A stretch of DNA of 64,000 nt. Origin: an uncultured Alphaproteobacteria bacterium. GTDB taxonomy: Bacteria; Pseudomonadota; Alphaproteobacteria; HIMB59; GCA-002718135. A model generated the notes under the pieces. The model saw only the letters and a program-made list of their open reading frames with translations, had not been told where the DNA came from and ran no database searches. The stretch lies in NCBI GenBank assembly GCA_902571865.1, contig CACGDO010000005.1, forward strand, positions 1,486 to 65,485, given 5' to 3'. This document shows, one piece after another, positions 40,053 through 62,353 of this stretch; the first letter of the stretch is position 1, and each line of letters starts with the position of its first letter. Made by a program: the position numbers and the translations under genes.

Positions 40053-40075
40053 TTACAATAATTAAAGGAAAACAT

Positions 40076-40642: not shown

Positions 40643-40648
40643 TAATTA

Positions 40649-41539
40649 ATGAAAATTGGTATTGATGTAGGTGGTACCAAAACTGAGGGTATTCTTTTAG
40701 ATCCAAATGGAATTGAAATAGATAGAAAAAGAATTAATACTGAAAAAAGTTATGATGGAACAATTAAGGGAATACTGTCCATTATAAAACATTTTGAAGA
40801 TAAACACGGCAAAGCAGAAACTGTTGGTATGGGAATGCCAGGAGCCATATCAAATGATACAGCTTTAATTAAAAATGCCAATTCTATATGGTTAAACGGC
40901 AAACCTTTTAAGCAAGATTTAGATAAAATTCTAAATAGAAATGTGAATTTGGAAAATGATGCTAATTGTTTTACTCTTTCTGAAGCAGTAGATGGAGCTG
41001 GTAAAGGGTTTGAAGTTGTTTTCGGTGTTATTATAGGAACTGGTGTAGGCGGTGGTATCAGTATCAATCAAAAAGTTATAAGAGGTCGTAATAGCATAAG
41101 TGGAGAATGGGGACATATAGTTTTGCCTAGCAGAACAGAAGATGAAAAAAAATATGTTAAAAAATGTTATTGTGGAAAAGATGGGTGCTTAGAAACCTAT
41201 ATATCTGGACCAGGGTTTTCATCTGTTTATAATTTACGTTTCAATAAAAATTATAATTCACATCAAATATTAGATGGTTATAATAATAAAGAAAAAGATA
41301 GTATCTTTGCACTAAATCAATATGTCGATCATTTAGCAAGAGGATTGTCTTTAGTTTGTAATATTCTTGATCCAGATGTGATAGTTTTGGGTGGAGGTAT
41401 GTCAAACATCGATTTTATTTATGAAAATATAAATGATGCTCTAAAAAAATATGTTTTTACAGATACGCTTCACACAAAAGTTGTAAAAAATATTCATGGT
41501 GATTCAAGTGGCGTAAGAGGAGCTGCTTGGCTTTCTTAA
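40649..41539 (+). CDS. ROK-family sugar kinase (fructokinase Mak-like)
   Basis: GIDVGGTK, ENDANCF, GTGVGGG, GEWGH, CYCGKDGCLE zinc motif. Confidence 0.9.
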   Translation: MKIGIDVGGTKTEGILLDPNGIEIDRKRINTEKSYDGTIKGILSIIKHFEDKHGKAETVGMGMPGAISNDTALIKNANSIWLNGKPFKQDLDKILNRNVNLENDANCFTLSEAVDGAGKGFEVVFGVIIGTGVGGGISINQKVIRGRNSISGEWGHIVLPSRTEDEKKYVKKCYCGKDGCLETYISGPGFSSVYNLRFNKNYNSHQILDGYNNKEKDSIFALNQYVDHLARGLSLVCNILDPDVIVLGGGMSNIDFIYENINDALKKYVFTDTLHTKVVKNIHGDSSGVRGAAWLS

Positions 41540-42987
41540 ATACCACCCATTGAAATATATTTTATAGTTAAATAGTCATCAAGGCCATAACGAGAACCTT
41601 CTCTTCCCATTCCTGATTCTTTTACACCTCCAAAAGGCACTTCTGCAATTGTTGGTAGTCCATTATTGATAGATACAATCCCATATTCAAGTGCTTCAGC
41701 TACTCTCCAAATTCTTCCTATGTCTCTTGAATAGAAATATGAAGCTAATCCATATGGTGTATCATTAGCCATTTTAATCACCTCATCATCACTAGAAAAT
41801 TTATAAAGAGGTGCAACAGGTCCAAATGTTTCTTCAAAAGTTATTTTTGCCTTTGTAGATACATTTGAGAGAACAGTTGGTTGATAGAAATTACCACCAA
41901 GCGAATGCACATCTCCACCAATTGCTATTTTAGCTCCGGTATTTACTGCATCTTGAACATGATCAATTACTTTTTCTAAAGAGGATTGATCAATTAAAGG
42001 ACCAGATACAATTCCATCTTCAAGTCCATTACCCACTGTTATTTTACTGACTTCATTTGTAAATTTTTCTAGGAATTCATCATAAATATTTTCATGGACA
42101 AAAATTCTATTTGAACAAATACATGTTTGACCACTATTTCTAAATTTACTTTGAAGTGCGCCTGCAACAGCTTCATCCATATCTGCATCATCGAAAACAA
42201 TAAAGGGTGCATGACCACCAAGTTCCATAGAAACTTTTTTTACTGTTGAGGCACTTTGCTCTAAAAGTATTTTTCCAACCTCCGTAGATCCTGTAAAAGA
42301 AATTTTTCTTACAATTGGGTTACTTGTTAGCTCTTTACCAATCTCACTTGCCGATCCAGTGATTACATTAAATACACCATCTGGAAAACCAGCTTCTTTA
42401 GCAAGCACTGCTACAGCTAGTGCTGAATAGGGTGTTTGGCTTGCTGGTTTAACAACAGTAGTACAACCAACAGCTAGAGCGGCTGCACATTTTCTTGTGA
42501 TCATTGAATTTGGAAAATTCCATGGAGTTATTGCTCCCACAACACCAACAGGTTGTTTAATTATTACAATTCTTTTTCCAGGTCTTGGATCAGGAACTAT
42601 ATCACCATACACTCTTTTTGCTTCTTCAGCATAGAACTCAATGTAAGAAGCACCCATTAGTATTTCACCCTTTGCTTCAGCTAGAGGTTTACCTTGCTCA
42701 ATAGTCATTATTTTAGCTAAATCATCTGCATTTTCTGTAATTAACTCACCCCATTTTTTAAGAATAACTGATCTTTCTTTCGCAGTAGTTTCTTTCCAGG
42801 TTTGGAAAGCAGTATTGGCATCATCTACAGCTTTTTTAGTTTCTGAAATTGAGCATTTTGGGACGTTGCCAATAATTTCAAGAGAGGCTGGATTATTTAC
42901 CTCAAGAGTTTCACCTGAAGAACTGTTAACCCATTCCCCATTTATAAAACATTTTTGTTTAAAGAGTGATTTGTTATTTAATTCCAT
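41536..42987 (-). CDS. gabD: NAD(P)-dependent succinate-semialdehyde dehydrogenase family (GabD/Ssd-like)
   Basis: ITPWNFP, FTGSTEVGK, ELGG, GQTCIC, EETFGP, PFGGVKESGMGREG. Confidence 0.85.
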   Translation of the reverse strand: MELNNKSLFKQKCFINGEWVNSSSGETLEVNNPASLEIIGNVPKCSISETKKAVDDANTAFQTWKETTAKERSVILKKWGELITENADDLAKIMTIEQGKPLAEAKGEILMGASYIEFYAEEAKRVYGDIVPDPRPGKRIVIIKQPVGVVGAITPWNFPNSMITRKCAAALAVGCTTVVKPASQTPYSALAVAVLAKEAGFPDGVFNVITGSASEIGKELTSNPIVRKISFTGSTEVGKILLEQSASTVKKVSMELGGHAPFIVFDDADMDEAVAGALQSKFRNSGQTCICSNRIFVHENIYDEFLEKFTNEVSKITVGNGLEDGIVSGPLIDQSSLEKVIDHVQDAVNTGAKIAIGGDVHSLGGNFYQPTVLSNVSTKAKITFEETFGPVAPLYKFSSDDEVIKMANDTPYGLASYFYSRDIGRIWRVAEALEYGIVSINNGLPTIAEVPFGGVKESGMGREGSRYGLDDYLTIKYISMGGI

Positions 42988-42995
42988 ATGTTTTA

Positions 42996-43003
42996 ATTAT
43001 AAT
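42996..43003. promoter_or_regulatory. Palindromic ATTATAAT giving a consensus -10 (TATAAT) on both strands: candidate bidirectional promoter
   Basis: Sits in the 43-nt gap between the divergent gabD and amidinotransferase starts. Confidence 0.5.
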
Positions 43004-43030
43004 GCATAGTTTTAAATTAAGGAAAATATA

Positions 43031-44134
43031 ATGACAATAGTTAATTCTTGGAATGAATGGGATCCATTAAGACATGTTATAGTTGGAGCAGTTGAAAATG
43101 CCAACATACCTCCAATGGAACCGGCGCTTGAACCAAAAATAAGTAAAGATAGTGGTATGGCAGGATCTCACGGACCACGTTCACAGGAGTCAATTGATAA
43201 AGCAAATATACAATTAGAAAACTTTGTTAAAATATTAAATTCCCTAAATATAAAAGTTGATAGACCAACACCTATTGACTTTTCTCAGATTATCAAGACA
43301 CCCGATTGGTCTAATGATGGTATGTTTGGTTGTATGCCTCCAAGAGATGTTATTCTTACTGTAGGAAATGAAATGCTAGAGGCGCCAATGTCTTACAGAT
43401 GTAGATGGTTTGAGTACCTTGCTTATAGGCCACTACTTGAAAAATATTATTCAGAAGATAAAAATATGAGATGGGAGTCGGCACCTAAACCAAGATTAAC
43501 AAATCAATCTTATAAGTCTAATTATCTTCCTAAAGGTATAACGGAAGAAGAACGATATAAAAAAATCGAAAATAGAGACATGATATTGACTGAAAAAGAA
43601 CCACTTTTTGATGCAGCAGAAATTTTACGTTTTGGAAAAGATCTTTTTTATCATAACAATTTTACATCAAATTTAAGTGGTTTAGATTGGTTAAGAAGGC
43701 ATTATCCAAATCATCGTGTTCATCAAATTAATTTACCAGGTGATTTAATTCCAACTCACATTGATGCATGTTTTACTCCCATTAAACCAGGAGTTATAAT
43801 TATTAATCCGAATAGAAAAATATCATCAGAGCAAAGAAAAATTTTTGATGATAATAAATGGGAAATTCATGAAGCAGCACCTTCTATTCATAATAGTCCA
43901 CCACCTATGTGTTATTCATCAATCTGGTTGTCAATGAATGTTTTGATAATTGATCCTAAAACTATATGTGTCGAAGCAACAGAAGAAAAAATGATTAAAC
44001 AAATGGAAAGTTTTGGATTGGATGTTATTCCTGTTCCTTTTAGAGACGTTTATGCATTTGGGGGTAGTCTACATTGTGCCACAACTGATGTTCATAGAGA
44101 GGGTGAGTGTGAGGATTATTTTCCAAGTCAATAA
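43031..44134 (+). CDS. Amidinotransferase (pentein superfamily, AGAT/StrB1/SxtG-like)
   Basis: VNSWNEWDPL, PRD, FDAA (catalytic Asp), HID (His), GGSLHCAT (Cys nucleophile). Confidence 0.92.
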   Translation: MTIVNSWNEWDPLRHVIVGAVENANIPPMEPALEPKISKDSGMAGSHGPRSQESIDKANIQLENFVKILNSLNIKVDRPTPIDFSQIIKTPDWSNDGMFGCMPPRDVILTVGNEMLEAPMSYRCRWFEYLAYRPLLEKYYSEDKNMRWESAPKPRLTNQSYKSNYLPKGITEEERYKKIENRDMILTEKEPLFDAAEILRFGKDLFYHNNFTSNLSGLDWLRRHYPNHRVHQINLPGDLIPTHIDACFTPIKPGVIIINPNRKISSEQRKIFDDNKWEIHEAAPSIHNSPPPMCYSSIWLSMNVLIIDPKTICVEATEEKMIKQMESFGLDVIPVPFRDVYAFGGSLHCATTDVHREGECEDYFPSQ

Positions 44135-44889
44135 TGAATAGTTTTAATCAAAATAATTTTAAAGCCAATTTAAATGACACAAACTTTTCTAGAATTGGTA
44201 TAATTACACTATCAACGGATTTTACCATAGAGCAGGATTTTAGAAAAATTTGCCATAATTTACCAGTTGATCTATTTTTTAATAGGATACCTTTTTTAAA
44301 TCCTCTAACTCATGAAAATTATATGAGAATGGCTGATCATCTTACAGAAACAACAAACCAAATACTACCCAATGAAAAAATACAAGTTGTAGCGTATGGA
44401 TGTACTTCGGGTACTATTGAAATTGGTGAAAAAAGAATAAGATCTGAAATTTTCAAGGCTAAACCTGATGCTTTAATTACTACACCTATTACAGCAGCTG
44501 TCAAAGCACTTAAATTGTTAAACCATAAAAAAATTGCTGTCCTTACTCCTTATCCAAAAGATGTTAATGTTAAAGTTTACAAATATTTAATTGAAAGTGG
44601 ATTTGAAATTAAATCATTTAGTTCATTTAATTTAAATTATGATTCGGAAATTGCCAAAGTTACTCATGATAGTTTAATGCGAACAATTTCTTCAATTAAT
44701 TTAATAGATGTTGATAGTATTTTTGTATCTTGTACTGCATTAAAAGTAATTGATATTATCGAAACATTAGAGTCAAAATTAAGCACAGATATCATTTCAA
44801 GTAATCAAGCTATTATTTGGGATTCATTAAGATTATCTAATATTAATCAAAAAATTGATGGTTTTGGTAACCTATTTAAATTACATTAA
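44134..44889 (+). CDS. eutA: EutA-like Asp/Glu racemase-maleate isomerase family protein
   Basis: RIGIITLSTD, paired catalytic cysteines YGCTSG and VSCTAL, SSNQA; precedes eutB/eutC-like genes. Confidence 0.72.
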   Translation: MNSFNQNNFKANLNDTNFSRIGIITLSTDFTIEQDFRKICHNLPVDLFFNRIPFLNPLTHENYMRMADHLTETTNQILPNEKIQVVAYGCTSGTIEIGEKRIRSEIFKAKPDALITTPITAAVKALKLLNHKKIAVLTPYPKDVNVKVYKYLIESGFEIKSFSSFNLNYDSEIAKVTHDSLMRTISSINLIDVDSIFVSCTALKVIDIIETLESKLSTDIISSNQAIIWDSLRLSNINQKIDGFGNLFKLH

Positions 44890-44901
44890 ATAGGGTTTAA
44901 A

Positions 44902-45864
44902 TTGATTACACTTCAACAAATACAAGATGCACATAAGAAAATTTTACCTTATGTTAATTATACACCATTAATTAATTCTAATTTCTTATCAAAAAATACT
45001 ACAGTAAAACTAAAGTTAGAAAATTTTCAAATCACTGGTTCATTTAAGTTAAGAGGCGCTGTTAATAAACTTCTTTCTTTAAGTGAAGATGACAAAAACA
45101 AAGGAGTCATTGCAGTTTCTACAGGGAATCACGGCAAAGGCGTTGCTTATGCTTCAAAAGTATTGGGCATTCAATCAACAATATATATGTCTTCAATGGT
45201 TCCAGAATATAGAAAAGAGGCTATTCAAAAATTAGGGGCTAAAGTAGAAATTATTGGAAAGAATAGTGATGAAGCTGATTTGTATGCTAAACAAATTGCG
45301 AAAGAAAAAAATATCCCACTAATTCATCCTTTTGATGATGAAGATATTATAATAGGGCAAGGTACAGTTGGACTTGAAATGCTTACTGAATTTCCCGAAG
45401 TTGATACAGTAATTATACCAACATCTGGTGGCGGTCTTATATCTGGAATTGCTCAGGCTATTAAACTTCAAAAACCTAACACAAAAATTATTGCCGTATC
45501 TATGGAAAGAGGCCCCTCAATGTATGAAAGTCTAAAAGAAGGTAAGCCTGTTGATGTAGAGGAAACTGAAACTTTAGCTGATTGTTTAGGGGGTAGTATT
45601 GGTTTAGATAATAAATTTACATTTAATATTGTACAAAAATACGTTGATGACTTTGTTTTAGTAAGTGAAGAAAAAATAGCTGAGGGAATTAGAATAAACT
45701 TTTTAGAACATAAAATTGTATCTGAAGGTGCTGCAGCAACAAGTGTTATGGTTGTTAAAGAAAAATTAACATCGCACTTAGGAAAAAATATAATTTGTTT
45801 AATTTGTGGTGGAAATATTGACTCGGAACTATTTAATAAAGTTTTAAGCCATGCTCATCCTTAA
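44902..45864 (+). CDS. eutB: EutB-like PLP-dependent dehydratase (Ser/Thr dehydratase family)
   Basis: TTG start; TGSFKLRGA, STGNHG, GGGL, and the EutB-type LGGSIGLDN segment. Confidence 0.8.
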   Translation: MITLQQIQDAHKKILPYVNYTPLINSNFLSKNTTVKLKLENFQITGSFKLRGAVNKLLSLSEDDKNKGVIAVSTGNHGKGVAYASKVLGIQSTIYMSSMVPEYRKEAIQKLGAKVEIIGKNSDEADLYAKQIAKEKNIPLIHPFDDEDIIIGQGTVGLEMLTEFPEVDTVIIPTSGGGLISGIAQAIKLQKPNTKIIAVSMERGPSMYESLKEGKPVDVEETETLADCLGGSIGLDNKFTFNIVQKYVDDFVLVSEEKIAEGIRINFLEHKIVSEGAAATSVMVVKEKLTSHLGKNIICLICGGNIDSELFNKVLSHAHP

Positions 45865-46825
45865 TAAAAATGATATTATTCAACATGTAAATTTGAATAA
45901 AAATCTCATACCAATAATAGAGGAGGCTTTCATAAGTTTATCAAAGGGATTGGTAATGATGCCACCTATAATGAGAATTGATATTGAAAAATATCATGGT
46001 GAATCAGATGTTAAAGCTGCATACATTGAGGGTTTTGACAGTTTTGCAATAAAAATCGCTTCAGGTTTTTTTGATAATCCAAAACTTGGTTTGCCATCTA
46101 GTAATGGACTGATGGTTTTATTAGATTCAAAGACTGGAGTTGTAAAATCTGTTTTATTGGATGAAGGTTATCTTACAGATACTAGAACAGCTATAGCAGG
46201 AGCAATAGCTACAAAATATTTATCAAATCAAAATGCTAATTCTGTTGGTATTATCGGAGCTGGAATTCAAGCCAAATTACAACTTCAAGCAATAATGTTA
46301 GTTAGAAAAATAAAAAAAATAACAGTCTGGACAAGAGATGAGACAAAAGCAAACCAATTTATCGAAGGTTTTAAAGATTTAGATTTAGATTTGCATGTAG
46401 CTTCTTCTTGCAAGGAGTTGGCAAGCTTATCAGAAATAATCGTTACAACAACTCCTAGTAAAAAACCGCTTTTGCAATTTGATTGGATAATTAAAGGAAC
46501 TCACATAACAGCAATGGGATCAGATGCAGAACAAAAAAACGAATTAGATCCTCAGTTGTTAAAACATTGCGATCAATATGTACCTGACAATCAATTACAA
46601 ACAAGTGTTTTGGGTGAATTACATCATGCTTTAAAACAAAATATAATTTCTTCTAAAGAAAAATTTAATGAACTTGGCGATATTATTAACGATCCAAGCT
46701 TAGGAAGAAAAAATAAAGAAGATATAACAATATGTGATTTGACAGGAACTGGCGTACAAGATACTGCAATAGCAAGATTTGCTTATAATCTTTGTAAAAC
46801 AAATAATTTAGGCATCAATATTTAA
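45851..46825 (+). CDS. eutC: EutC-like ornithine cyclodeaminase/mu-crystallin family protein
   Basis: MPPIMRIDI..GESDVKAAY, GFFDNPKLGLPS.NG, GYLTDTRTA, DLTGTGVQD. Confidence 0.82.
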   Translation: MLILNKNDIIQHVNLNKNLIPIIEEAFISLSKGLVMMPPIMRIDIEKYHGESDVKAAYIEGFDSFAIKIASGFFDNPKLGLPSSNGLMVLLDSKTGVVKSVLLDEGYLTDTRTAIAGAIATKYLSNQNANSVGIIGAGIQAKLQLQAIMLVRKIKKITVWTRDETKANQFIEGFKDLDLDLHVASSCKELASLSEIIVTTTPSKKPLLQFDWIIKGTHITAMGSDAEQKNELDPQLLKHCDQYVPDNQLQTSVLGELHHALKQNIISSKEKFNELGDIINDPSLGRKNKEDITICDLTGTGVQDTAIARFAYNLCKTNNLGINI

Positions 46826-46828
46826 TTT

Positions 46829-48271: not shown

Positions 48272-48274
48272 GTT

Positions 48275-50587: not shown

Positions 50588-51605
50588 AATCACAGTATTT
50601 AACACACATTGCTGTGGTGAAATTGGGGATGTTGTAACTGGAATTAAAGGCTTGAATTTTAAATCACCTGAAGAAGCTTCTAAAAAACTTTTTTTAGATA
50701 AAAAATGGAGAAATTTTTTTCTAAATGAACCTCGAGGAGGGGTCTTTAAACATTGTAATATTATTTTAGAACCTTCAAATAAAAATGCAGATGCTGGATT
50801 TGTAATTATGGAACCAGAAGATAATCCTCCAATGAGTGGGTCAAATGCAATTTGTGTAACGACAGTCTTATTAGAAAAAAATATTGTTCAAATGAAATAT
50901 CCTAAAACCATGCTTACACTTGAAGCTCCAGGTGGTTTAATAAAAGTTGTTGCTGATTGTGAAAATAAGAAAGTTAAAAGTGTCACTTTAACTAATCTTG
51001 CCTGCTTTGCAGATAAAATAGATGTAGATTTAAAGACTAAAAATTATGGTACAATTAAAGTAAGTACTGCTTTTGGAGGTGACAGTTTTTTAATTTGTAA
51101 TGCTAGTGATTTTAATCTTAAAATTGAACCAAAGAATGCAAATAAATTTGTAAATGTTGCAAAAGAATTATTAAAAGAAGCAAACGCATCTATAGGATTT
51201 GAGCATCCTACTATTAATGGATTAGACTATCTTTCCTTTTGCCAATTTATTGAACCCTTAAAAAAAAATAATCAATCATTACTTACAGGATTAAATACAG
51301 TTGTTATACGACCTGGGAAACTTGATCGTTCACCTTGCGGCACAGGCACTTCAGCAAGATTAGCAGTAATGAAAGAAAAAAATGAAATACAAATAAATGA
51401 AGAATTTATATCAAAGTCTATTATAGGATCTTCATTTAACGCAAGTATTGAAAAGGAAATTAAAATTAATAACAAAAATTGTATTATTCCAAAAATAACA
51501 GGTAGTGCATTTATTACTGGAAAACAAAGTTTATATATCGATAAGGATGATCCTTTTCCAGAAGGTTATAGATTAAATGACACATGGCCAGATTCATTAA
51601 GTTAA
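50580..51605 (+). CDS. Proline racemase superfamily enzyme (Ser/Cys active-site pair)
   Basis: EPRGG, PMSGSNAIC, DRSPCGTGTSA, ITGSA. Confidence 0.88.
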   Translation: MDEITVFNTHCCGEIGDVVTGIKGLNFKSPEEASKKLFLDKKWRNFFLNEPRGGVFKHCNIILEPSNKNADAGFVIMEPEDNPPMSGSNAICVTTVLLEKNIVQMKYPKTMLTLEAPGGLIKVVADCENKKVKSVTLTNLACFADKIDVDLKTKNYGTIKVSTAFGGDSFLICNASDFNLKIEPKNANKFVNVAKELLKEANASIGFEHPTINGLDYLSFCQFIEPLKKNNQSLLTGLNTVVIRPGKLDRSPCGTGTSARLAVMKEKNEIQINEEFISKSIIGSSFNASIEKEIKINNKNCIIPKITGSAFITGKQSLYIDKDDPFPEGYRLNDTWPDSLS

Positions 51606-51681
51606 CTGTGATTAAATAACACTAGTATGGCGAGTTAATTTATTTTACTTTCATCAACTATTCTAATAATTAATAAAACAA

Positions 51682-52947
51682 ATGACAAAATTTAATGCCT
51701 GGAATGTAATTAAAAACGGTTTAAATGGTCAGTCTTATTGGACTAGACAATGGCGTGATCCAGAACCAAAAAGTAGTTATGACGTTGTAATAATTGGGGG
51801 AGGTTTGCACGGTCTTGCCACAGCATATTATTTAGCAAAGAATCATAATATAAAAAATGTAGCTGTCTTAGAAAAAGGCTGGATTGGTGGAGGAAACGCT
51901 GGACGTAATACCACTATTGTAAGATCAAATTATATGATGCCAGGCAACCACGAATTTTATGAACATTCTTTAAAGTTATGGGAAAATTTAAGTCACGAAT
52001 TAAATTATAATGTAATGTTTAGCCAACGAGCTCATGTCTCGTTATTTCATAGCCCTGGTGCTAAAGATTCAGTTTCACGGATTTATAATATTATGCGACT
52101 CCACGGAACTGATGCAGAACTTTGGGATTTAAAAACTTTAAAGAAAAAAATTCCGCATTTAAATTATCATAATTCTAGATTTCCAATACTTGGAGCTGCA
52201 GTTCAAAAAAGAGCAGGCAATGCAAGACACGATGCAGTTGCATGGGGTTATGCAAGGGCTGCAGATACATTAGGTGTAGACATTTTGCAAAATTGTGAAG
52301 TTACAGGTTTTACAAGAAAGAATGGAAATATTGAAAGTATTCAAACTTCAAGAGGAATTATAAAAGGAAAGAAAATAGGATTTGCTGTTGCAGGTAATAC
52401 TTCAGTATTATGGCAAATGGCAGAATTAGGCAACCTGCCAATTGAGTCTCATAAACTACAAGCATTTGTATCTGAGGCTGTTAAGCCACTCCTAGATCAG
52501 GTTGTTGTTTACGGTGTAGGTGGTGCACATTTCTATATATCGCAGTCAGACAAAGGAAGTATGGTGTTTGGTGGTGATCTTGACTGGTATAAATCATATG
52601 CTCAAAGAGGAAATCTTCCTATGGTTCAAGATGTTGCTGAAGCGGCCATGGCAATATTTCCTTCACTTGGGAGAATAAGATTACTTCGTCATTGGGCAGG
52701 TGTTATGGACATGACAATGGACGGATCATTTTTTATTTGTAAAACACCGATATCTAATCTCTATTTAAATGCTGGTTGGAACTATGGGGGTTTTAAAGCA
52801 AGTCCAGCATCAGGTTGGTATTTTGCCGACTTAATTGCAAATGAAAGCCCGCATAACTACGTGCAAAATCATAATTTAGAAAGATTTGAAAAAGGTATCA
52901 ATATAGATGAACGTGGTGCAGGACCTGATCCGAAATTGCACGGTTAA
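51682..52947 (+). CDS. soxB: Heterotetrameric sarcosine oxidase family beta subunit
   Basis: GGGLHG, GRNTTIVRSNY, ARHDAVAW, GWNYGGFKA. Confidence 0.9.
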   Translation: MTKFNAWNVIKNGLNGQSYWTRQWRDPEPKSSYDVVIIGGGLHGLATAYYLAKNHNIKNVAVLEKGWIGGGNAGRNTTIVRSNYMMPGNHEFYEHSLKLWENLSHELNYNVMFSQRAHVSLFHSPGAKDSVSRIYNIMRLHGTDAELWDLKTLKKKIPHLNYHNSRFPILGAAVQKRAGNARHDAVAWGYARAADTLGVDILQNCEVTGFTRKNGNIESIQTSRGIIKGKKIGFAVAGNTSVLWQMAELGNLPIESHKLQAFVSEAVKPLLDQVVVYGVGGAHFYISQSDKGSMVFGGDLDWYKSYAQRGNLPMVQDVAEAAMAIFPSLGRIRLLRHWAGVMDMTMDGSFFICKTPISNLYLNAGWNYGGFKASPASGWYFADLIANESPHNYVQNHNLERFEKGINIDERGAGPDPKLHG

Positions 52948-53232
52948 ATGATTAGAATTAATTGTCCTTATTGTGGTGAAAGAGATCATAGTGAATTTAG
53001 TTATGGAGGAGATGCAACAATCAATTATCCTTCGTTAGATGCATCAGAGAAAGAATGGACTGAAGCTATATTTTTCAGAAAAAATATAAAAGGTTTTCAA
53101 TTTGAAACATGGCATCATTCTAATGGATGTAGAATGTGGTTGGTAGTTGAACGTTCTACTGTCACTCATGAAATAAAAAGTGTCAAACCATCCCATCCGG
53201 ATTTACAGAAGATTGTAGAAAATAATAAATGA
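52948..53232 (+). CDS. soxD: Sarcosine oxidase family delta subunit
   Basis: CPYCG.R...EF.YGG, WHHSNGC zinc ligands. Confidence 0.92.
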   Translation: MIRINCPYCGERDHSEFSYGGDATINYPSLDASEKEWTEAIFFRKNIKGFQFETWHHSNGCRMWLVVERSTVTHEIKSVKPSHPDLQKIVENNK

Positions 53233-56186
53233 AGACAAGAAGAATAGATAACTATGGAAAAATTAATAGAGATAAAATTTTATCCTTTAGGTGGGATAAA
53301 AAAAATTACAAAGGTTTTGAAGGAGATACTCTAGCATCAGCATTACTTGCAAATAATATTGGTATAGTTGGTAGAAGTTTTAAATATCATAGACCAAGGG
53401 GAATATTTTCTAGTGGAGTCGAGGAGTCCGGTGCTTTAGTTACTATTGGTTCAAAAGATAGAAGAGATCCAAATGTAAGAGCAACAACGCAAGAATTATA
53501 TAATGGTTTGGAAGCAAGTGGTCAAAATGCATTTCCAAATGTAAATTTTGATCTAGCTGGAATAAATAATTACTTAGGTAGGTTTTTTGCAGCTGGTTTT
53601 TATTATAAAACTTTTATGGGAATACCTCCACTTGAATGGGGTAAAGGAACAGCCATATGGATGTTTTTTGAAAAGTTTATTAGAAAAGCTGCGGGAATGG
53701 GAAGTGCTTCTGGGTTACCTGATCCAGATACTTATGAGCATGCTCATGATTTTTGTGATTTAATTGTTGTAGGATCAGGACCTGCTGGTGTTGCAGCTGC
53801 AATAGAGGCAGCAGAAAAAAAATTAGATGTTATTTTAGTTGAGCAAGATAGTCTTATTGGAGGAAATCAACTTGCAGAAAATGATTTTGATAACTCACAA
53901 ATTAAAAATCAACTTGAAAATCTAGGCATAAAAATAATGACTAGAACTACTGCATTCGGATTATATGATAATTGTGTTGTTGGTTTATTAGAGAGAGTAA
54001 CAGACCATATATCAGCATCAAATGTAAACATTCCACGCCAAAGATTTTGGACCATTAGAGCAAAGCATATAATTGTTGGTGCTGGAGCAATTGAAAGACA
54101 CATTGCATTTAATAATAATGATATTCCTGGTGTAATGACCGTAAATGCATCAAAGCATTATTTGAATAGATATGGTGTACTCACCGGAAAAAGAATTGTG
54201 ATAGCTACAAATAATGATTCTGTTTATGAAACAGCACATCAATTATCAGAAGCTGGGGCCAATGTAACTGTTCTTGATTCACGAACTAATTTTGAAATTG
54301 AGACAAATAAAAGTTTTGAAATAAGAAAAGGGTATGTACCTTATAATATTAATGGTTCAAAAAAAATTAATAGTTTAGATATATCAAAAAGTGTAACTAT
54401 TAATAAATCTGAAACTATAAATTGTGATCAGGTTCTATTATCAGGTGGCTGGTCACCTGCTGTACATTTGTTATCTCACAGAGGCGTAAAGCCTAAATGG
54501 GATTATAACAATGCTTGTTTTTTACCAAGTGACACAAAAGAAAATATTACAATGGTAGGTTCTTCTAGAGGTTTATGGAATAAAAATGATTGTATTGCTT
54601 CTGGGATAGCAGGAACTACTGATGCGTTGAACCGTTTAGGTATTTCTAAAACAAATTATTTTTTCCCAAAACCTGGTGGATGGAAAAATCCCATACAACC
54701 ACTTTATGAAGTAAAATATAAAAAATCTAGATCAAAAAGTTTTGTAGATTATCAACATGATGTAACAACAGATGACGTAAGACTCGCACATCGTGAAGGT
54801 TTCATTTCGGTAGAGCATCTTAAAAGATACACAACTTTAGGTATGGCAAACGATCAAGGAAAAATGGGAAATATCATTGGATTGTCTTTAATGGCAGAAC
54901 TTTTAAATAAAGAAATTTCAGAAGTTGGAACTACTGTTTTTAGACCTCCTTATACTCCTGTATCTATAGGTGCCTTAAGCGGAAGAAATGTTGGAAAACA
55001 TTTTAGGCCGTTAAGAGTAACGCCAATGCATCAATGGAATATTGATCATGGTGCAAAAATGATTGAAGTTGGATTGTATCAAAGACCTTGGTATTATCCC
55101 AAAGAAAATGAAACTTTAAGTGACTCTTATATAAGAGAAGCATCAACAGTAAGAAAAACAGTTGGAATTTGTGATGTAACATCATTAGGCAAAATAGCTA
55201 TTCAAGGACCAGACTCTACCGAATTTTTAAATAGAATTTATTCGAATGGTTTTTCAAAACTACAAGTTGGAAAAGCTAGATACGGTATCATGTTACGTGA
55301 TGACGGTATTGTAATGGATGATGGCACATCTTGGAGATTAGCAGAAAATGAATATTTTATGACGACGTCTACAGGTGAAGCTGCAAAAGTGATGTCATGG
55401 TTAGAAGAATTACTTCAAACTAGATGGACAGATCTTAATGTTAATGTGACTAGTGTTTCTGAACAATGGGCAGGCGTATCAATTGCAGGACCTAAATCTA
55501 GAGAAGTTCTCAATAATTGTGTCGATGATTCTTTGGTTATAACTAATAATAACTTACCTTTTATGGGTGTTACTTCAACATTTCTTAAAGGTAATATTCC
55601 TTGTAGGATTGCAAGAATTAGTTTTTCCGGCGAATTAGCTTTTGAAGTTTATGTCAAATCAGATTTTGCCAATACAATGATGGACTTACTTTGGGAAAAT
55701 GCAAAAAAATATGATGGATGTTTATATGGATTAGAAGCTTTAGGTGCGCTTAGAGTTGAAAAAGGTCATGTAACAGCTGCTGAGCTTGATGGGAGGGTAA
55801 CAATTGATGATGCAGGTTTAAGCAAAATGGCATCTACAAAAAAATCATATATTGGAAGCGCAATGAGAAAACGAGGAGTTTTAAAAAATAATGATCGTGA
55901 AATTCTAGTAGGCTTCTTTCCTACAAATCTAAAAGAAACTTTTAATGCTGGAACTATTGTGTGTGAAAAAAATAATATTAAAGGACAGGGTATCGGAAGA
56001 ATCACCTCAGTCACTTATTCTCCAGAACTTGGACATTGGATTGGAATAGGTTTTGTAAAAGGTGGTTTAGATAAATGGAAAGATACCACTTTAGTAGGCG
56101 CAGACCCTGTAAGAAATAAACAAATGAATTTAAAAGTTGTTTCACCACATATGATTGATCCTAAAGGAGAACGAATGTATGCATAG
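53229..56186 (+). CDS. soxA: Sarcosine oxidase family alpha subunit (NAD-binding plus GcvT-like folate domain)
   Basis: GDTLASAL, FKYHRPRG, GSGPAG, KRYTTLGMA.DQGK, RISFSGELAFE. Confidence 0.92.
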   Translation: MKTRRIDNYGKINRDKILSFRWDKKNYKGFEGDTLASALLANNIGIVGRSFKYHRPRGIFSSGVEESGALVTIGSKDRRDPNVRATTQELYNGLEASGQNAFPNVNFDLAGINNYLGRFFAAGFYYKTFMGIPPLEWGKGTAIWMFFEKFIRKAAGMGSASGLPDPDTYEHAHDFCDLIVVGSGPAGVAAAIEAAEKKLDVILVEQDSLIGGNQLAENDFDNSQIKNQLENLGIKIMTRTTAFGLYDNCVVGLLERVTDHISASNVNIPRQRFWTIRAKHIIVGAGAIERHIAFNNNDIPGVMTVNASKHYLNRYGVLTGKRIVIATNNDSVYETAHQLSEAGANVTVLDSRTNFEIETNKSFEIRKGYVPYNINGSKKINSLDISKSVTINKSETINCDQVLLSGGWSPAVHLLSHRGVKPKWDYNNACFLPSDTKENITMVGSSRGLWNKNDCIASGIAGTTDALNRLGISKTNYFFPKPGGWKNPIQPLYEVKYKKSRSKSFVDYQHDVTTDDVRLAHREGFISVEHLKRYTTLGMANDQGKMGNIIGLSLMAELLNKEISEVGTTVFRPPYTPVSIGALSGRNVGKHFRPLRVTPMHQWNIDHGAKMIEVGLYQRPWYYPKENETLSDSYIREASTVRKTVGICDVTSLGKIAIQGPDSTEFLNRIYSNGFSKLQVGKARYGIMLRDDGIVMDDGTSWRLAENEYFMTTSTGEAAKVMSWLEELLQTRWTDLNVNVTSVSEQWAGVSIAGPKSREVLNNCVDDSLVITNNNLPFMGVTSTFLKGNIPCRIARISFSGELAFEVYVKSDFANTMMDLLWENAKKYDGCLYGLEALGALRVEKGHVTAAELDGRVTIDDAGLSKMASTKKSYIGSAMRKRGVLKNNDREILVGFFPTNLKETFNAGTIVCEKNNIKGQGIGRITSVTYSPELGHWIGIGFVKGGLDKWKDTTLVGADPVRNKQMNLKVVSPHMIDPKGERMYA

Positions 56187-56742
56187 ACATTCTGCACTAG
56201 AAACAATTTATAAGGTTGGAAAATATTCATCAAGCGAGAAACAATCTCTAACATTTAAAGAATTAAAAAGTTTAGAAATTTTGCAAATTGCTTGTTGGCC
56301 TGACAAAATTGATGAAATGAATAATTTAATATCAAAAGAACTAAAAATTAAAAATATTCCTAGTTTTAATAAAGGGATAATTTTTGAAAATAAATCATTA
56401 TGGAGAATGGAACCTTTGAAATGGTGGCTATTTAATAAAGAAATTGAAATAAGTGAGCAAATCGCAACAATTTTAGACATGTCTCATGCTTTTACAGGTA
56501 TTGAAATTACAGGAGATAATTCATCATTATTTTTAAATAGACATCTTCCAATTGATTTAAGAGCTAGGAATTTTCCAGATCTATCTTCTGCTAGCACAGC
56601 TATTCATCATGTCAGTGTTAAGCTATTTAAAATAACTTCCAATAACTACTGTCTATATATACCAAGAGGTTTTGCTTTATCAATTTGGGAGATCCTTCTT
56701 GAAACAGCGGATCAGTTTGGATACGAAGTATTAGAGAGATAG
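56179..56742 (+). CDS. soxG: Sarcosine oxidase family gamma subunit
   Basis: Position after soxA with 8-nt overlap; DMSHA...I.ITG, PIDL, RGFA..IW..L. Confidence 0.8.
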   Translation: MHRHSALETIYKVGKYSSSEKQSLTFKELKSLEILQIACWPDKIDEMNNLISKELKIKNIPSFNKGIIFENKSLWRMEPLKWWLFNKEIEISEQIATILDMSHAFTGIEITGDNSSLFLNRHLPIDLRARNFPDLSSASTAIHHVSVKLFKITSNNYCLYIPRGFALSIWEILLETADQFGYEVLER

Positions 56743-57497: not shown

Positions 57498-57502
57498 AGA
57501 TA

Positions 57503-61068: not shown

Positions 61069-61133
61069 TTTTTAAATTAACTTTTGACTATTTGTTTTCA
61101 TGCAGTTATTCAAGCTTCATTACAAAATATATT

Positions 61134-62222: not shown

Positions 62223-62353
62223 ATCTATTTTTTTATCGGTATTTGGCCAAAATTTTTTATTTTTACCTCTTTTTTTTCATTTAATGACATGTTATTAAAC
62301 CACCATTACGGACATAATCTTAAGATTAATTAATAAAAAATAGGAGGATATAT

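What the first reader, a model, noticed from the sequence alone, without database searches (positions are those of the whole stretch)
41536..56742. Candidate undescribed pathway: amidinotransferase-led, ectoine-like catabolic operon ending in a sarcosine-oxidase-type complex
Seen: eight genes (43031-51605) joined by overlaps or gaps of 12 nt or less: amidinotransferase, EutA-, EutB- and EutC-like proteins, orphan PLP enzyme, M20 hydrolase, metal-free M24 hydrolase and proline-racemase-family enzyme. After 76 nt come soxBDAG, and an ssd/gabD is divergent. Knowledge: ectoine/hydroxyectoine catabolism uses eutABCDE plus atf and ssd, and includes neither an amidinotransferase nor a proline racemase. 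I know of no described pathway with this combination. Inference, in order of preference: (a) catabolism of a guanidino or cyclic-guanidine analogue of (hydroxy)ectoine, with the amidino group transferred to an acceptor such as ornithine (salvaged as arginine) rather than lost as urea; (b) creatine/guanidinoacetate use (M24 as creatinase giving sarcosine for SoxBDAG); (c) Arg to Orn to Pro flux through the amidinotransferase, cyclodeaminase and racemase, analogous to cyanobacterial ArgZ/AgrE chemistry.
Basis: partly seen in the sequence, partly recalled or inferred. Interest (0 to 1): 0.85.

Follow-up and report, generated by a model that had tools for sequence, protein, structure and literature searches.

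The report
Modular nitrogen-osmolyte breakdown gene island
An abundant, streamlined marine bacterium of the HIMB59/AEGEAN-169 type carries a real, conserved and undescribed cluster of 13 genes that most likely breaks down small nitrogen-rich solutes related to ectoine and creatine, but it is built from separable modules rather than being one pathway led by the amidinotransferase.

Summary
Eight intact genes (43031-51605) are packed with gaps of -14 to +12 nt, soxBDAG follows after 76 nt, and an SSADH-type gene lies divergent 43 nt upstream. Family assignments are mostly right: a true AGAT-type amidinotransferase, EutA/B/C-like proteins, a CysK-fold PLP enzyme, an M20 amidohydrolase, an M24 protein lacking all five metal ligands, a Ser/Cys proline-racemase-family enzyme, and heterotetrameric sarcosine oxidase.

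The order is conserved in about 30 related genomes, but comparison with other lineages splits it into modules:
- AT-EutA(+ssd) survives alone.
- OCD-PALP-M20-M24-ProR occurs without AT, EutA, EutB or sox.
- Some close relatives lack M24 through sox.
- AT orthologues elsewhere sit in unrelated contexts, repeatedly next to creatinase or DoeA-like M24 hydrolases and a Pot-type importer.

The M24 subfamily is widespread. It pairs with M20 in 25 of 65 metagenome loci. In Roseovarius, Aminobacter and 10-11 of 43 metagenome loci it heads an M24-racemase-soxBDAG operon; on the two plasmids this lies beside an Ehu-type transporter. Sister genomes carry a threshold-passing EhuABCD inside the cluster.

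Best reading: a composite island for ectoine-type and creatine/N-methyl-type solutes. The substrate is not identified. Verdict: new variant of a known kind, moderately interesting.

The parts
41536..42987 (-). ssd/gabD-type NAD(P)-dependent aldehyde dehydrogenase, divergent from AT with a 43-nt spacer
   Evidence: Pfam Aldedh 577 bits. TIGR01780 SSADH 727 bits, above the 646 cutoff. Adjacent to AT in all HIMB59-type loci, including L032 and L081.
43031..44134 (+). AGAT-type amidinotransferase (AT)
   Evidence: Matches PDB 1JDX/1JDW at E 6e-77, SxtG at 7e-65 and StrB1 at 1e-56. Residues equivalent to D170, D254, H303, D305, R322, S355 and C407 are conserved; lid positions N300 and M302 are Ile and Thr. 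The lid motif is specific to this lineage.
44134..44889 (+). EutA-like member of the Asp/Glu/hydantoin racemase (Amdase) family; its start overlaps the AT stop by 1 nt
   Evidence: Pfam Amdase 76 bits. TIGR02990 eutA 212 bits, below the 318 cutoff. The AT-EutA pair is kept even in L032, which lacks eutB through soxG.
44902..45864 (+). EutB-like PLP dehydratase (threonine-dehydratase fold)
   Evidence: NF005680 EutB 379 bits against a 413 cutoff; next best is threonine ammonia-lyase at 322 bits.
45851..46825 (+). EutC-type OCD/mu-crystallin family enzyme (cyclodeaminase or imine reductase)
   Evidence: NF006141 'cyclodeaminase' 453 bits, above 408. TIGR02992 eutC 409, below 472. True ornithine cyclodeaminase model 112, below 350. 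Travels with PALP-M20-M24-ProR in L084/L085.
46829..48271 (+). 480-aa PLP enzyme with a cysteine-synthase / beta-substituted-alanine-synthase core plus N- and C-terminal helical extensions
   Evidence: Pfam PALP only 32 bits. Best PDB sequence hit is CysK at E 7e-13. AF2 model pLDDT 90. Foldseek best matches are CysK, beta-cyanoalanine synthase and CBS, TM about 0.8 on the target, 20-25% identity. More than 8000 close homologues in marine metagenomes.
48275..49429 (+). M20 N-acyl-amino-acid amidohydrolase
   Evidence: TIGR01891 320 bits, above 154. Best specific models are CpsA (316) and DoeB2, the M20-type N-acetyl-DABA deacetylase (315, below the 550 cutoff). Orthologues at 49-50% on the Roseovarius and Aminobacter plasmids. 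Lies directly upstream of the M24 orthologue in 25 of 65 metagenome loci.
49430..50587 (+). M24 'pita-bread' protein of a distinct subfamily lacking all five metal ligands
   Evidence: Pfam M24 85 bits and Creatinase_N 63 bits. EutD model 57 bits against 613. Prolidase ligands D209, D220, H284, E313 and E327 are replaced by C, G, R, D and G; the conserved His is kept. Only 21-25% identical to creatinase and DoeA-like proteins. Orthologues at 55-56% head M24-Amdase-soxBDAG operons.
50580..51605 (+). Proline-racemase-superfamily enzyme with a Ser/Cys catalytic pair (4-Hyp/3-Hyp epimerase or t3Hyp dehydratase type)
   Evidence: Pfam Pro_racemase 329 bits. Best PDB hits are 4K8L and 1TM0; motifs MSGSN and DRSPCGTG are present. 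Those structures belong to 'cluster 3', which is functionally mixed (PMC4113996). Absent in L014.
51682..52947 (+). soxB, sarcosine oxidase beta subunit
   Evidence: TIGR01373 606 bits, above 529. 410 bits to PDB 2GAG_B. 75-76% identical to soxB of the Roseovarius and Aminobacter operons.
52948..53232 (+). soxD, delta subunit
   Evidence: Pfam SoxD 106 bits.
53229..56186 (+). soxA, alpha subunit with a folate-binding GcvT domain
   Evidence: TIGR01372 1165 bits against a 1164 cutoff. Pfam GCV_T, SO_alpha_A3 and Fer2_4.
56155..56742 (+). soxG-like gamma subunit (TTG start as listed)
   Evidence: TIGR01375 51 bits, below the 144 cutoff. It occupies the gamma-subunit position. 31-32% identical to the plasmid soxG genes.
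61092..63457 (+). Pot-type ABC importer (ATPase plus SBP_bac_8 binding protein); tentatively part of the system
   Evidence: TIGR01187 potA 377 bits, above 356. SBP_bac_8 148 bits. The ATPase is 63-68% identical and the binding protein 39-42% identical to the importers adjacent to AT in L040, L047 and L050 and to creatinase-M20-M24 in L112. In L010 and L013 it directly follows M20.

Best explanation
The locus is a conserved but modular catabolic island of a streamlined HIMB59/AEGEAN-169-type alphaproteobacterium. It degrades small nitrogen-rich zwitterionic solutes and is not a single linear pathway.

Shown:
- gene identities at family level;
- conservation of the order in the lineage;
- separability of the modules;
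- recurrence of M20-M24 and of M24-racemase-soxBDAG in unrelated bacteria;
- Ehu-type and Pot-type importers attached to these modules.

Inferred mechanism:
1. The metal-free M24 enzyme hydrolyses an amidine- or guanidine-type C-N bond of an imported solute, as its metal-free relatives ectoine hydrolase and creatinase do. The adjacent M20 amidohydrolase then removes the resulting N-acyl or N-carbamoyl group.
2. EutB-like dehydratase plus the EutC-type reductase, with EutA-like or ProR-type epimerases setting stereochemistry, remove a beta-hydroxyl from the freed amino acid. This has been proposed for hydroxy-DABA in hydroxyectoine catabolism. The CysK-fold PLP enzyme performs a beta-elimination or beta-replacement. 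The SSADH-type dehydrogenase oxidises the resulting semialdehyde.
3. SoxBDAG removes an N-methyl group from a product (sarcosine or another N-methyl amino acid) and passes the C1 unit to tetrahydrofolate.
4. The amidinotransferase is an add-on that moves amidino groups between arginine/ornithine and a guanidino acid, saving nitrogen instead of releasing urea.

The most probable substrate classes are (hydroxy)ectoine-type cyclic amidines for the eut-like part and creatine-like N-methyl guanidino or amidino acids for the M24/M20/Sox/AT part.
For: Order conserved in about 30 genomes.

Modularity:
- L084/L085 carry OCD-PALP-M20-M24-ProR-DAO only.
- L032 carries ssd | AT-EutA-DoeA-like-DmdA only.
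- L010 and L013 lack M24 through EamA; L014 lacks ProR; L020 lacks PALP, M20 and M24.

Signals pointing to ectoine-type substrates:
- EutA/B/C-like proteins near the thresholds, in the alphaproteobacterial order eutABC (PMC13188858).
- ssd adjacent, as in the canonical cluster.
- EhuA, EhuB and EhuC all above the NCBIfam cutoffs, inserted between eutC and PALP in L023-L026.
- A DoeA-like hydrolase (369 bits to PDB 6TWJ) adjacent in L081 and L032.
- DoeB2 is among the best specific matches for the M20 protein, and M20 replaces EutE in putative Bacillota ectoine clusters.
- The M24 orthologues in Roseovarius and Aminobacter lie beside AsnC and EhuCDA genes.

Signals pointing to N-methyl or creatine-type substrates:
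- M24-Amdase-soxBDAG-Rieske operons.
- A true creatinase in the same gene row as M20-M24, behind a Pot-type importer.
- AT lies next to a true creatinase in Pelagibacter, next to DoeA-like proteins (L032, L034), and next to an M24 of this subfamily plus the same importer type in L040.

The M24 protein lacks the metal ligands, as creatinase and DoeA-like proteins also do.
Against: - No substrate has been identified, and no enzyme of these exact subfamilies has been characterised.
- The window lacks EutD, EutE, a DABA transaminase, a regulator and any transporter inside the cluster.
- EutA and EutB fall below their curated cutoffs.
- No step in ectoine breakdown yields an N-methyl amine, so soxBDAG has no role in that reading.
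- M24 is not a creatinase, so the creatine reading needs a different, unnamed substrate.
- The AT link to the rest is restricted to one lineage and could be inherited synteny.
- The ProR-family enzyme, the Ldh_2 gene in L020/L021 and the DAO gene in L084 fit hydroxyproline chemistry better than either proposed class.
- There is no transcript evidence.
Confidence: 0.45

Rival explanations
1. Creatine-family route as the main function. A guanidino or cyclic N-methyl compound related to creatine or creatinine is imported by the Pot-type system. M24 and M20 hydrolyse it to sarcosine or another N-methyl amino acid, and SoxBDAG converts that to glycine. AT moves the amidino group of guanidinoacetate or creatine onto ornithine. 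The eut-like genes are bystanders.
For: M24-racemase-soxBDAG operons in three orders. Creatinase-M20-M24 behind an orthologous Pot-type importer. Creatinase-AT-threonine-aldolase-like genes in Pelagibacter. AT, M24 and the importer together in L040. A DUF1989 protein next to M24 in six metagenome loci. A field tracer study reports creatine made from sarcosine by an 'unidentified enzyme' (PMC9321204).
Against: M24 is only 25% identical to creatinase and has different residues at the ligand and substrate positions. It also sits in the same gene row as a true creatinase, so it must do something else. This reading gives no role to EutB, EutC, PALP or ProR. It also does not explain the Ehu-type transporter inserted inside the cluster in sister genomes.
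Confidence: 0.2
2. One linear pathway for a guanidino or cyclic-guanidine analogue of (hydroxy)ectoine: AT removes the amidino group first, and all eight genes then act in sequence.
For: AT is translationally coupled to EutA, and the pair plus ssd is conserved down to 65% AT identity, where it is followed by a DoeA-like hydrolase (L032). The AT lid motif is specific to this lineage. All eight genes are tightly packed.
Against: No such natural compound is known to me. The modules separate freely: L084, L010/L013, L014 and L020. AT orthologues elsewhere have no eut partners. The M20-M24 pair is widespread without AT.
Confidence: 0.1
3. Proline-family chemistry. The cluster degrades hydroxyprolines, N-methyl(hydroxy)prolines or their betaines, or channels Arg to Orn to Pro. 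ProR epimerises or dehydrates, the OCD-family enzyme reduces pyrroline-2-carboxylate or cyclises ornithine, and SoxBDAG demethylates N-methylproline.
For: The ProR-family enzyme belongs to the 4HypE/t3HypD 'cluster 3', whose neighbours include OCD, Ldh_2, DAO and aldehyde dehydrogenase. An Ldh_2 gene lies next to ProR in L020/L021. A DAO gene follows ProR in L084. AT yields ornithine.
Against: The OCD protein is EutC-type, not an ornithine cyclodeaminase or LhpI. This reading gives no role to M20, the metal-free M24, PALP or EutB. ProR is missing in L014 while the rest is kept. The inserted transporter is Ehu-type.
Confidence: 0.1
4. No shared function. In a genome with almost no intergenic DNA, unrelated catabolic genes have simply been packed side by side and inherited together.
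For: The genome is streamlined (31% GC, minimal spacers everywhere). There is no regulator in the cluster. Modules are gained and lost independently. The neighbouring genes are unrelated: glutathione synthesis, BioY and a ROK kinase.
Against: The same family combinations recur in unrelated, non-streamlined bacteria on plasmids (GC 58-60%): M24, M20, sox, a racemase, a PLP lyase and an Ehu-type transporter. AT pairs with M24-type hydrolases in four different configurations.
Confidence: 0.1

Closest known systems
Ectoine/hydroxyectoine catabolic cluster of Ruegeria pomeroyi and Sinorhizobium meliloti (ehu/ueh-eutABCDE-asnC-ssd-atf)
   Same: EutA-, EutB- and EutC-like genes in the alphaproteobacterial order, with an adjacent ssd-type dehydrogenase. 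An M24 hydrolase is followed or preceded by a deacylase. An Ehu-type importer is embedded in sister genomes, and a DoeA-like hydrolase is adjacent in relatives.
   Different: The window has no EutD/DoeA (57 bits against 613), no EutE, no Atf transaminase and no EnuR or AsnC regulator. Extra genes are AT, a CysK-fold PLP enzyme, a ProR-family enzyme and soxBDAG. EutA and EutB score below their cutoffs.
Putative ectoine clusters of Bacillota, in which an M20 enzyme (abgB / 'DoeB2') replaces EutE (PMC13188858; NCBIfam NF038259 and NF038260)
   Same: An M24 hydrolase paired with an M20 amidohydrolase instead of the EutD-EutE pair. DoeB2 is among the best specific models for the window M20 protein.
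   Different: Scores are far below the cutoffs (M20 315 against 550; M24 54 against 575). The Bacillota clusters themselves have not been tested experimentally.
Creatine pathway: creatinase (metal-free M24) followed by heterotetrameric sarcosine oxidase
   Same: A metal-free M24 enzyme upstream of soxBDAG. A true creatinase neighbours both AT and the M20-M24 pair in other marine bacteria.
   Different: The window M24 is 25% identical to creatinase, with C/G/R/D/G at the ligand positions where creatinase has N/A/H/E/E. It is accompanied by M20 and a racemase, which creatine breakdown does not need.
Uncharacterised plasmid operons of Roseovarius pelagicus HL-MP18 (NZ_CP106737) and Aminobacter sp. 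SR38 (NZ_CP062115): LysR | M24-Amdase-soxBDAG-Rieske, beside AsnC-SBP-EhuCDA and M20-diaminopropionate ammonia-lyase
   Same: Orthologous M24 (55-56%), M20 (49-50%), soxB (75-76%) and soxA (57-58%). A racemase lies between M24 and soxB. A fold-type-II PLP lyase lies next to M20.
   Different: The racemase slot is filled by an Amdase-family protein rather than a ProR-family one, and the PLP enzyme belongs to a different subfamily. They have no AT, EutB, EutC or ssd, and they do have regulators and transporters. Their function is equally unknown.
Hydroxyproline pathways (4HypE with D-Hyp oxidase; t3HypD with Pyr2C reductase), Zhao et al. 2014
   Same: The ProR-family enzyme falls in the same sequence cluster as 4K8L and 1TM0. 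OCD, Ldh_2, DAO and aldehyde dehydrogenase neighbours appear in this or related loci.
   Different: There is no Pyr4H2C deaminase, and the OCD protein is EutC-type. Most of the cluster (AT, EutA, EutB, PALP, M20, M24) has no place in those pathways.
L-arginine:glycine amidinotransferase (AGAT/GATM) and its relatives SxtG, CyrA and StrB1
   Same: Same fold. The catalytic Cys-His-Asp triad and all arginine/ornithine-binding residues are conserved.
   Different: The lid residues differ (N300 to Ile, M302 to Thr) and are specific to this lineage. The context is catabolic rather than biosynthetic. The acceptor or donor other than arginine/ornithine is unknown.

Membership tests
Canonical ectoine/hydroxyectoine catabolic cluster (eutABCDE-ssd-atf) | EutD/DoeA ectoine hydrolase (TIGR02993) | tested here: not met
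   The window M24 scores 57.5 bits against a 613 cutoff and is 21-23% identical to DoeA-like proteins. DoeA-like genes occur only in the relatives L081, L032 and L034.
Canonical ectoine/hydroxyectoine catabolic cluster (eutABCDE-ssd-atf) | EutE/DoeB N-acetyl-DABA deacetylase | tested here: not met
   No gene between 37.7 and 63.5 kb matches that family. The only candidate substitute is the M20 protein, which scores 315 bits against 550 on DoeB2.
Canonical ectoine/hydroxyectoine catabolic cluster (eutABCDE-ssd-atf) | EutA, EutB and EutC at equivalog level | tested here: inconclusive
   EutA 212 against 318; EutB 379 against 413; EutC 409 against 472, though PRK08291 'cyclodeaminase' is passed at 453 against 408. 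The eut models are the top hits for EutA and EutB; for the OCD protein the top hit is PRK08291 'cyclodeaminase', with eutC second. The low-GC composition may depress the scores.
Canonical ectoine/hydroxyectoine catabolic cluster (eutABCDE-ssd-atf) | Ssd dehydrogenase and Atf/DoeD transaminase | tested here: inconclusive
   An SSADH-type gene is present. No aminotransferase is found between 37.7 and 63.5 kb. The rest of the genome could not be seen.
Canonical ectoine/hydroxyectoine catabolic cluster (eutABCDE-ssd-atf) | Dedicated Ehu or Ueh importer in or beside the cluster | tested here: not met
   Absent from the window cluster. Present and above the cutoffs (EhuA 388 against 345; EhuB 290 against 191; EhuC 236 against 197) in the sister genomes L023-L026.
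AGAT-type amidinotransferases | Cys-His-Asp catalytic triad and arginine-binding Asp, Asp, Arg and Ser | tested here: met
   The alignment to 1JDX shows D170, D254, H303, D305, R322, S355 and C407 all conserved. The GxLHC motif is present in 79 of the 80 orthologues.
AGAT-type amidinotransferases | Arginine:glycine specificity | not testable with these tools
   The lid residues differ from AGAT. An enzyme assay is needed.
Creatinase (creatine amidinohydrolase) | High similarity to solved creatinases and their active-site pattern (N, A/E, H, E, E at the M24 ligand positions) | tested here: not met
   62 bits to 1CHM, against 533 bits for a true marine creatinase; 25% identity; pattern C, G, R, D, G.
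M24 metallopeptidases (prolidase / aminopeptidase P) | Five metal ligands: D, D, H, E, E | tested here: not met
   All five are replaced, and consistently so across the subfamily.
Heterotetrameric sarcosine oxidase (SoxBDAG) | Four subunit genes in the order B-D-A-G, with a folate-binding GcvT domain in the alpha subunit | tested here: met
   soxB 606 against 529; soxA 1165 against 1164 with GCV_T; SoxD Pfam 106 bits; soxG weak at 51 against 144 but in the right position. 410 bits to 2GAG_B.
Heterotetrameric sarcosine oxidase (SoxBDAG) | Sarcosine as the physiological substrate | not testable with these tools
   The NCBIfam models are 'subfamily' level. Paralogous sox operons with other N-methyl substrates have been suggested (PMC9321204).
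Proline racemase superfamily (4HypE / t3HypD) | Family fold and catalytic pair | tested here: met
   Pfam 329 bits. The Ser (MSGSN) / Cys (DRSPCGTG) pair matches 4K8L and 1TM0.
Proline racemase superfamily (4HypE / t3HypD) | Specific activity (t3Hyp dehydratase or Hyp epimerase) | tested here: inconclusive
   NF047722 417 bits against 550. The sequence cluster is functionally mixed and some members are promiscuous.

The most novel reading that the evidence does not exclude
The amidinotransferase, the metal-free M24/M20 hydrolase pair and SoxBDAG together form an undescribed, widespread marine route for guanidino or amidino osmolytes. In this route the amidino group is salvaged by transfer to ornithine, making arginine, rather than lost as urea. 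One concrete form: a creatine:ornithine (that is, arginine:sarcosine) amidinotransferase. That would be the 'unidentified enzyme' behind the sarcosine-to-creatine labelling seen in North Pacific tracer experiments (PMC9321204). It would also give glycine-auxotrophic, nitrogen-starved SAR11- and HIMB59-type cells a nitrogen-sparing source of glycine and arginine.
Probability: 0.2. Interest if true: 0.8.

Novelty: new variant of a known kind. Interest (0 to 1): 0.6.

Why it matters
HIMB59/AEGEAN-169 and SAR11 cells are among the most numerous heterotrophs in the surface ocean, and they live on dilute, nitrogen-containing small molecules. Which solutes they consume is largely inferred from annotation.

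This locus, and the widespread M20-M24(-sox) module it contains, marks at least one substrate class that current annotation does not capture. The M24 and PALP proteins are labelled 'Xaa-Pro peptidase' and 'cysteine synthase' in public records.

Identifying the substrate would add a flux to marine carbon and nitrogen budgets. It would also assign function to thousands of metagenomic genes. It could show whether amidino-group salvage is a nitrogen-saving strategy.

Culturable carriers of the orthologous operon exist (Roseovarius pelagicus, Aminobacter sp. SR38), so the question can be tested directly.

Tried and rejected
- **Exact-protein look-up of AT:** found nothing on record.
- **Promoter and terminator scans:** fewer sites than in shuffled sequence and nothing in the 76-nt gap. 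They say nothing about operon structure.
- **Literature searches:** amidinotransferase with SAR11, DoeB2, and arylmalonate decarboxylase with sarcosine oxidase returned only a KEGG-level mention or nothing. The AEGEAN-169 genomics paper does not mention sarcosine, creatine, hydroxyproline or amidinotransferase.
- **M24 as EutD, creatinase or prolidase:** rejected on scores and residues.
- **OCD protein as a true ornithine cyclodeaminase:** rejected.
- **Sulfonate link for PALP480:** considered because TauE/SafE genes lie near its homologues on Rhizobium and Bosea plasmids and near some M24-sox loci. The chromosomal Rhizobiales homologues instead sit with F420-biosynthesis, CoA-transferase, luciferase-like and M20 genes, so no consistent clue emerged.
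- **L010 and L013, where the Pot-type importer directly follows M20:** first looked like independent linkage. It is better explained as a deletion of M24 through EamA relative to the window order.
- **Substrate ideas that fit only some of the genes, none adopted:** BMAA, opines, N-methylhydantoin, hydroxyproline betaines and homoserine betaine.

Full report
**What is in the window.**
The window has about 31% GC and almost no intergenic DNA. Its closest relatives in the genome collection are single-cell genomes labelled 'uncultured Alphaproteobacteria AG-89x' and MarineAlpha5 bins, with Pelagibacteraceae further away. That places it in the HIMB59/AEGEAN-169-type lineage (inference from record titles; PMC10308909 gives the clade background).

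The spacings are -1, +12, -14, +3, +3, 0 and -8 nt across the eight genes. A 76-nt gap precedes soxB. The spacings within soxBDAG are 0, -4 and -32 nt. Only 43 nt separate the divergent ssd and AT start codons.

**Gene identities.**
- **41536-42987 (-):** an SSADH-type aldehyde dehydrogenase (TIGR01780, 727 bits against a 646 cutoff).
- **43031-44134:** no Pfam hit at E<0.001, yet a clear AGAT-type amidinotransferase. It matches human AGAT at E 6e-77, SxtG at 7e-65 and StrB1 at 1e-56. The residues equivalent to D170, D254, H303, D305, R322, S355 and C407 are conserved. The lid positions N300 and M302 are Ile and Thr.
- **44134-44889, 44902-45864 and 45851-46825:** EutA and EutB are the best models for the first two genes. 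The OCD protein scores highest on the PRK08291 'cyclodeaminase' model, with EutC second. Only PRK08291 is passed (453 against 408). The others fall short: EutA 212 against 318, EutB 379 against 413, EutC 409 against 472. The true ornithine cyclodeaminase model scores only 112 against 350.
- **46829-48271:** a 480-aa PLP protein. Its AlphaFold model (pLDDT 90) superposes best on cysteine synthase, beta-cyanoalanine synthase and CBS cores, with TM about 0.8 on the target and 20-25% identity. It has added terminal helices.
- **48275-49429:** an M20 N-acyl-amino-acid amidohydrolase. Its best specific models are CpsA and DoeB2, the M20-type N-acetyl-DABA deacetylase, at 316 and 315 bits against cutoffs of 500 and 550.
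- **49430-50587:** an M24 protein in which the five prolidase metal ligands are replaced by C, G, R, D and G. The pattern is conserved across its subfamily. It is 21-25% identical to creatinase and DoeA-like proteins.
- **50580-51605:** a proline-racemase-family enzyme with a Ser/Cys catalytic pair, closest to 4K8L and 1TM0. These belong to a sequence cluster shown to be mixed and promiscuous for 4-Hyp epimerase and t3Hyp dehydratase activity (PMC4113996).
- **soxBDAG:** passes the sarcosine oxidase family models, and the alpha subunit carries the folate-binding domain.

**Conservation and modularity.**
The amidinotransferase was used to fetch 80 genomic loci. Loci L001-L029 (AT 86-98% identical) keep ssd | AT-eutA-eutB-eutC-PALP-M20-M24-ProR-soxB... 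as far as their DNA extends. L081 does so at 82% AT identity. The arrangement is therefore inherited and stable in the lineage.

It nonetheless falls apart into modules:
- L032 (AT 65% identical) keeps only ssd | AT-EutA. These are followed by a DoeA-like ectoine hydrolase (369 bits to PDB 6TWJ) and DmdA.
- L084 and L085 keep only OCD-PALP-M20-M24-ProR, followed by a 365-aa DAO-family oxidase in place of sox. They have no AT, EutA, EutB or ssd.
- L020 lacks PALP, M20 and M24. L014 lacks ProR. L010 and L013 lack everything from M24 to the EamA gene, so that M20 abuts the Pot-type importer.
- L020 and L021 carry an Ldh_2 gene on the opposite strand between ProR and soxB. There, sox cannot be on the same transcript.
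- L023-L026 carry a BisC-type S/N-oxide reductase and a complete EhuABCD importer between eutC and PALP. EhuA, EhuB and EhuC are above the curated cutoffs.

**The amidinotransferase elsewhere.**
The other 50 loci hold AT orthologues at 61-68% identity in Pelagibacteraceae, other Alphaproteobacteria and Desulfobacterales. None has eutB, eutC, PALP, ProR or sox nearby. The 'AT-led ectoine-like operon' is therefore specific to one lineage.

AT does recur beside M24-type amidino hydrolases:
- A true creatinase (535 bits to PDB 7YTO) lies immediately upstream of AT in Pelagibacter L072-L074, L076 and L077, where a threonine-aldolase-family gene follows AT. L071 shows the same order on a contig that cuts the creatinase short. 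In L080 one extra ORF separates creatinase from AT.
- A DoeA-like protein lies directly after AT in L034, and after AT-EutA in L032.
- In a Desulfosarcinaceae contig (L040), an OTCase-like gene, AT, an M24 41% identical to the window's, and a Pot-type ABC importer lie together.
- The same importer type is divergent from AT in L047 and L050. The window encodes it at 61092-63457, with the ATPase 65-68% and the binding protein 40-42% identical.

**The M24-M20-sox module elsewhere.**
Searching plasmids with the M24 protein found 55-56% orthologues in Roseovarius pelagicus and Aminobacter sp. SR38. In both, a LysR gene is divergent from an operon of M24, an Amdase-family racemase-like gene, soxB, soxD, soxA, soxG and a Rieske oxygenase. 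This operon lies beside AsnC, a binding protein and EhuC/D/A. The same plasmids carry an M20 amidohydrolase next to a diaminopropionate ammonia-lyase.

Identities to the window proteins are M24 55-56%, M20 49-50%, soxB 75-76% and soxA 57-58%. The racemase-like gene is only about 31% identical to the window EutA.

Eighty metagenome loci with this M24 (GC 42-66%) were then examined:
- M20 lies directly upstream of M24 in 25 of 65 loci with enough upstream DNA.
- An Amdase-like gene plus soxB lies directly downstream in 10-11 of 43 loci with enough downstream DNA.
- Three loci carry a true creatinase in the same gene row. In L108 and L112 the order is creatinase-M20-M24 (63% identity to the Pelagibacter creatinase), behind a Pot-type importer orthologous to the AT-linked one.

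The slot between M24 and soxB is filled by a ProR-family enzyme in HIMB59 and by an Amdase-family enzyme elsewhere. This suggests an epimerisation step is needed (inference).

**Interpretation.**
Two sets of signals coexist.

Ectoine-type signals:
- EutABC-like genes in the alphaproteobacterial order, with ssd adjacent.
- A threshold-passing Ehu importer inside the cluster in sister genomes.
- DoeA-like hydrolases adjacent in relatives.
- An M24 plus M20 pair that parallels EutD-EutE and the M20 substitution seen in putative Bacillota clusters (PMC13188858).

N-methyl and guanidino signals:
- The recurrent fusion of M24 with folate-linked N-demethylases: SoxBDAG, a DMGDH-like protein, Rieske oxygenases and a DgcA-like enzyme.
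- The creatinase neighbours.
- The AT-M24-importer network.

No single known compound satisfies both sets. Ectoine breakdown yields no N-methyl amine, and creatine breakdown needs neither M20, a racemase, EutBC nor a CysK-fold enzyme.

I therefore favour a composite island (confidence 0.45). In it, M24/M20 open and deacylate an amidine- or guanidine-type solute. EutB and EutC, the epimerases and the PLP enzyme process the freed beta-substituted amino acid. Ssd oxidises a semialdehyde. SoxBDAG removes an N-methyl group. AT salvages amidino groups.

The mechanism is inferred from family chemistry: creatinase and DoeA are metal-free M24 hydrolases; BhcB/BhcD-type and the proposed EutB/EutC chemistry; AGAT reversibility. 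The last three points rest on my own knowledge of those families.

**Rivals.**
- A creatine-family route as the main function: 0.20.
- Proline or hydroxyproline chemistry: 0.10.
- Mere packing of unrelated genes: 0.10.

**Novelty and interest.**
No paper in the searchable library discusses an amidinotransferase in SAR11 or HIMB59 beyond a KEGG label, or an Amdase-sarcosine oxidase operon. All enzyme families are known, and the logic (ring-opening or hydrolysis, deacylation, dehydration, N-demethylation) is that of known osmolyte catabolism. I class it as a new variant of a known kind.

It is interesting for three reasons. It sits in very abundant bacteria. Thousands of metagenomic homologues are mis-annotated as 'Xaa-Pro peptidase' or 'cysteine synthase'. 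Culturable carriers make it testable.

A field tracer study reported creatine formed from sarcosine by an 'unidentified enzyme' (PMC9321204). An arginine:sarcosine amidinotransferase would explain that. This is the most novel reading that I cannot exclude (probability about 0.2).

Noticed in passing
L072-L074, L076-L077 (Pelagibacteraceae), e.g. L077:8763-12153; L071 and L080 are variants: A true creatinase (535 bits to PDB 7YTO), an AT orthologue and a threonine-aldolase-family (Beta_elim_lyase) gene lie in a row after an EamA transporter. In L080 one extra ORF separates creatinase from AT, and in L071 the contig cuts the creatinase short. All three enzymes can yield glycine or its precursor, which fits the glycine dependence of SAR11.
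   Followed up: partly
L023-L026, e.g. L025:10420-15165: Sister genomes carry a cytoplasmic BisC-type molybdopterin S/N-oxide reductase (910 bits, just under the 1018 cutoff) plus a full EhuABCD importer, inserted between eutC and the PALP gene. The role of the reductase is unexplained.
   Followed up: partly
L010 and L013 (AT 97-98% identical to the window): These relatives lack the block corresponding to window M24 through the EamA gene (about 49.4-61.1 kb), so M20 is directly followed by the Pot-type importer. L014 lacks only ProR. The locus behaves as a flexible region within populations.
   Followed up: partly
window 56817-59167 (-): A DUF3726 protein (238 aa) and an overlapping 554-aa ORF with no Pfam or NCBIfam match. 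The pair is conserved next to the cluster in L032 as well (44% and 62% identity).
   Followed up: no
window 59222-61068: An M19 membrane-dipeptidase-family gene (242 bits) and a convergent EamA-type transporter lie between the sox genes and the Pot-type importer. The same order occurs in L032.
   Followed up: no
L081:19941-21443 and L032:11781-14150: A DoeA-like M24 hydrolase (486 bits on the EutD model, below the 613 cutoff) is followed in L032 by a gene that passes the DMSP demethylase (DmdA) model at 536 bits against a 410 cutoff. In L081 a positionally equivalent GcvT-family gene follows it but runs off the end of the locus. The pairing of an 'ectoine hydrolase' with DmdA is unexplained.
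   Followed up: no
L174-L176 (Labrys, Xanthobacter, Kaistia chromosomes): Rhizobiales homologues of the 480-aa PLP enzyme (46-50% identical) sit in a conserved row: F420 biosynthesis genes, PALP, a two-subunit CoA-transferase, a luciferase-like oxidoreductase and M20. On the Rhizobium and Bosea plasmids the homologue lies near TauE/SafE and M20 genes.
   Followed up: partly
L121-L124, L135, L137 (marine metagenome contigs): In these loci the M24 orthologue is followed by a DUF1989 protein. To my knowledge DUF1989 is the family of carboxyguanidine deiminase subunits. A D-Tyr-tRNA deacylase gene comes next. This is another hint of guanidine or urea chemistry.
   Followed up: no
AT orthologues in L001-L080: The substrate-lid motif before the catalytic His differs by group: LPGDLIPTHIDA in the HIMB59 group, FPGDPYPIHIDA in most other marine orthologues (including L032), and SFKDPNPMHIDA in human AGAT.
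   Followed up: partly
window 37774-41539: Directly upstream of the cluster lie a GCS2-family glutamate-cysteine ligase, glutathione synthetase, BioY and a ROK-family kinase. These are syntenic in all relatives and look unrelated to the cluster.
   Followed up: no
window 7200-35600: Two ORFs of about 1400 aa (10020-18336) are followed by a long run of small same-strand ORFs. The layout resembles rpoBC and ribosomal-protein operons. This was not checked with any tool.
   Followed up: no
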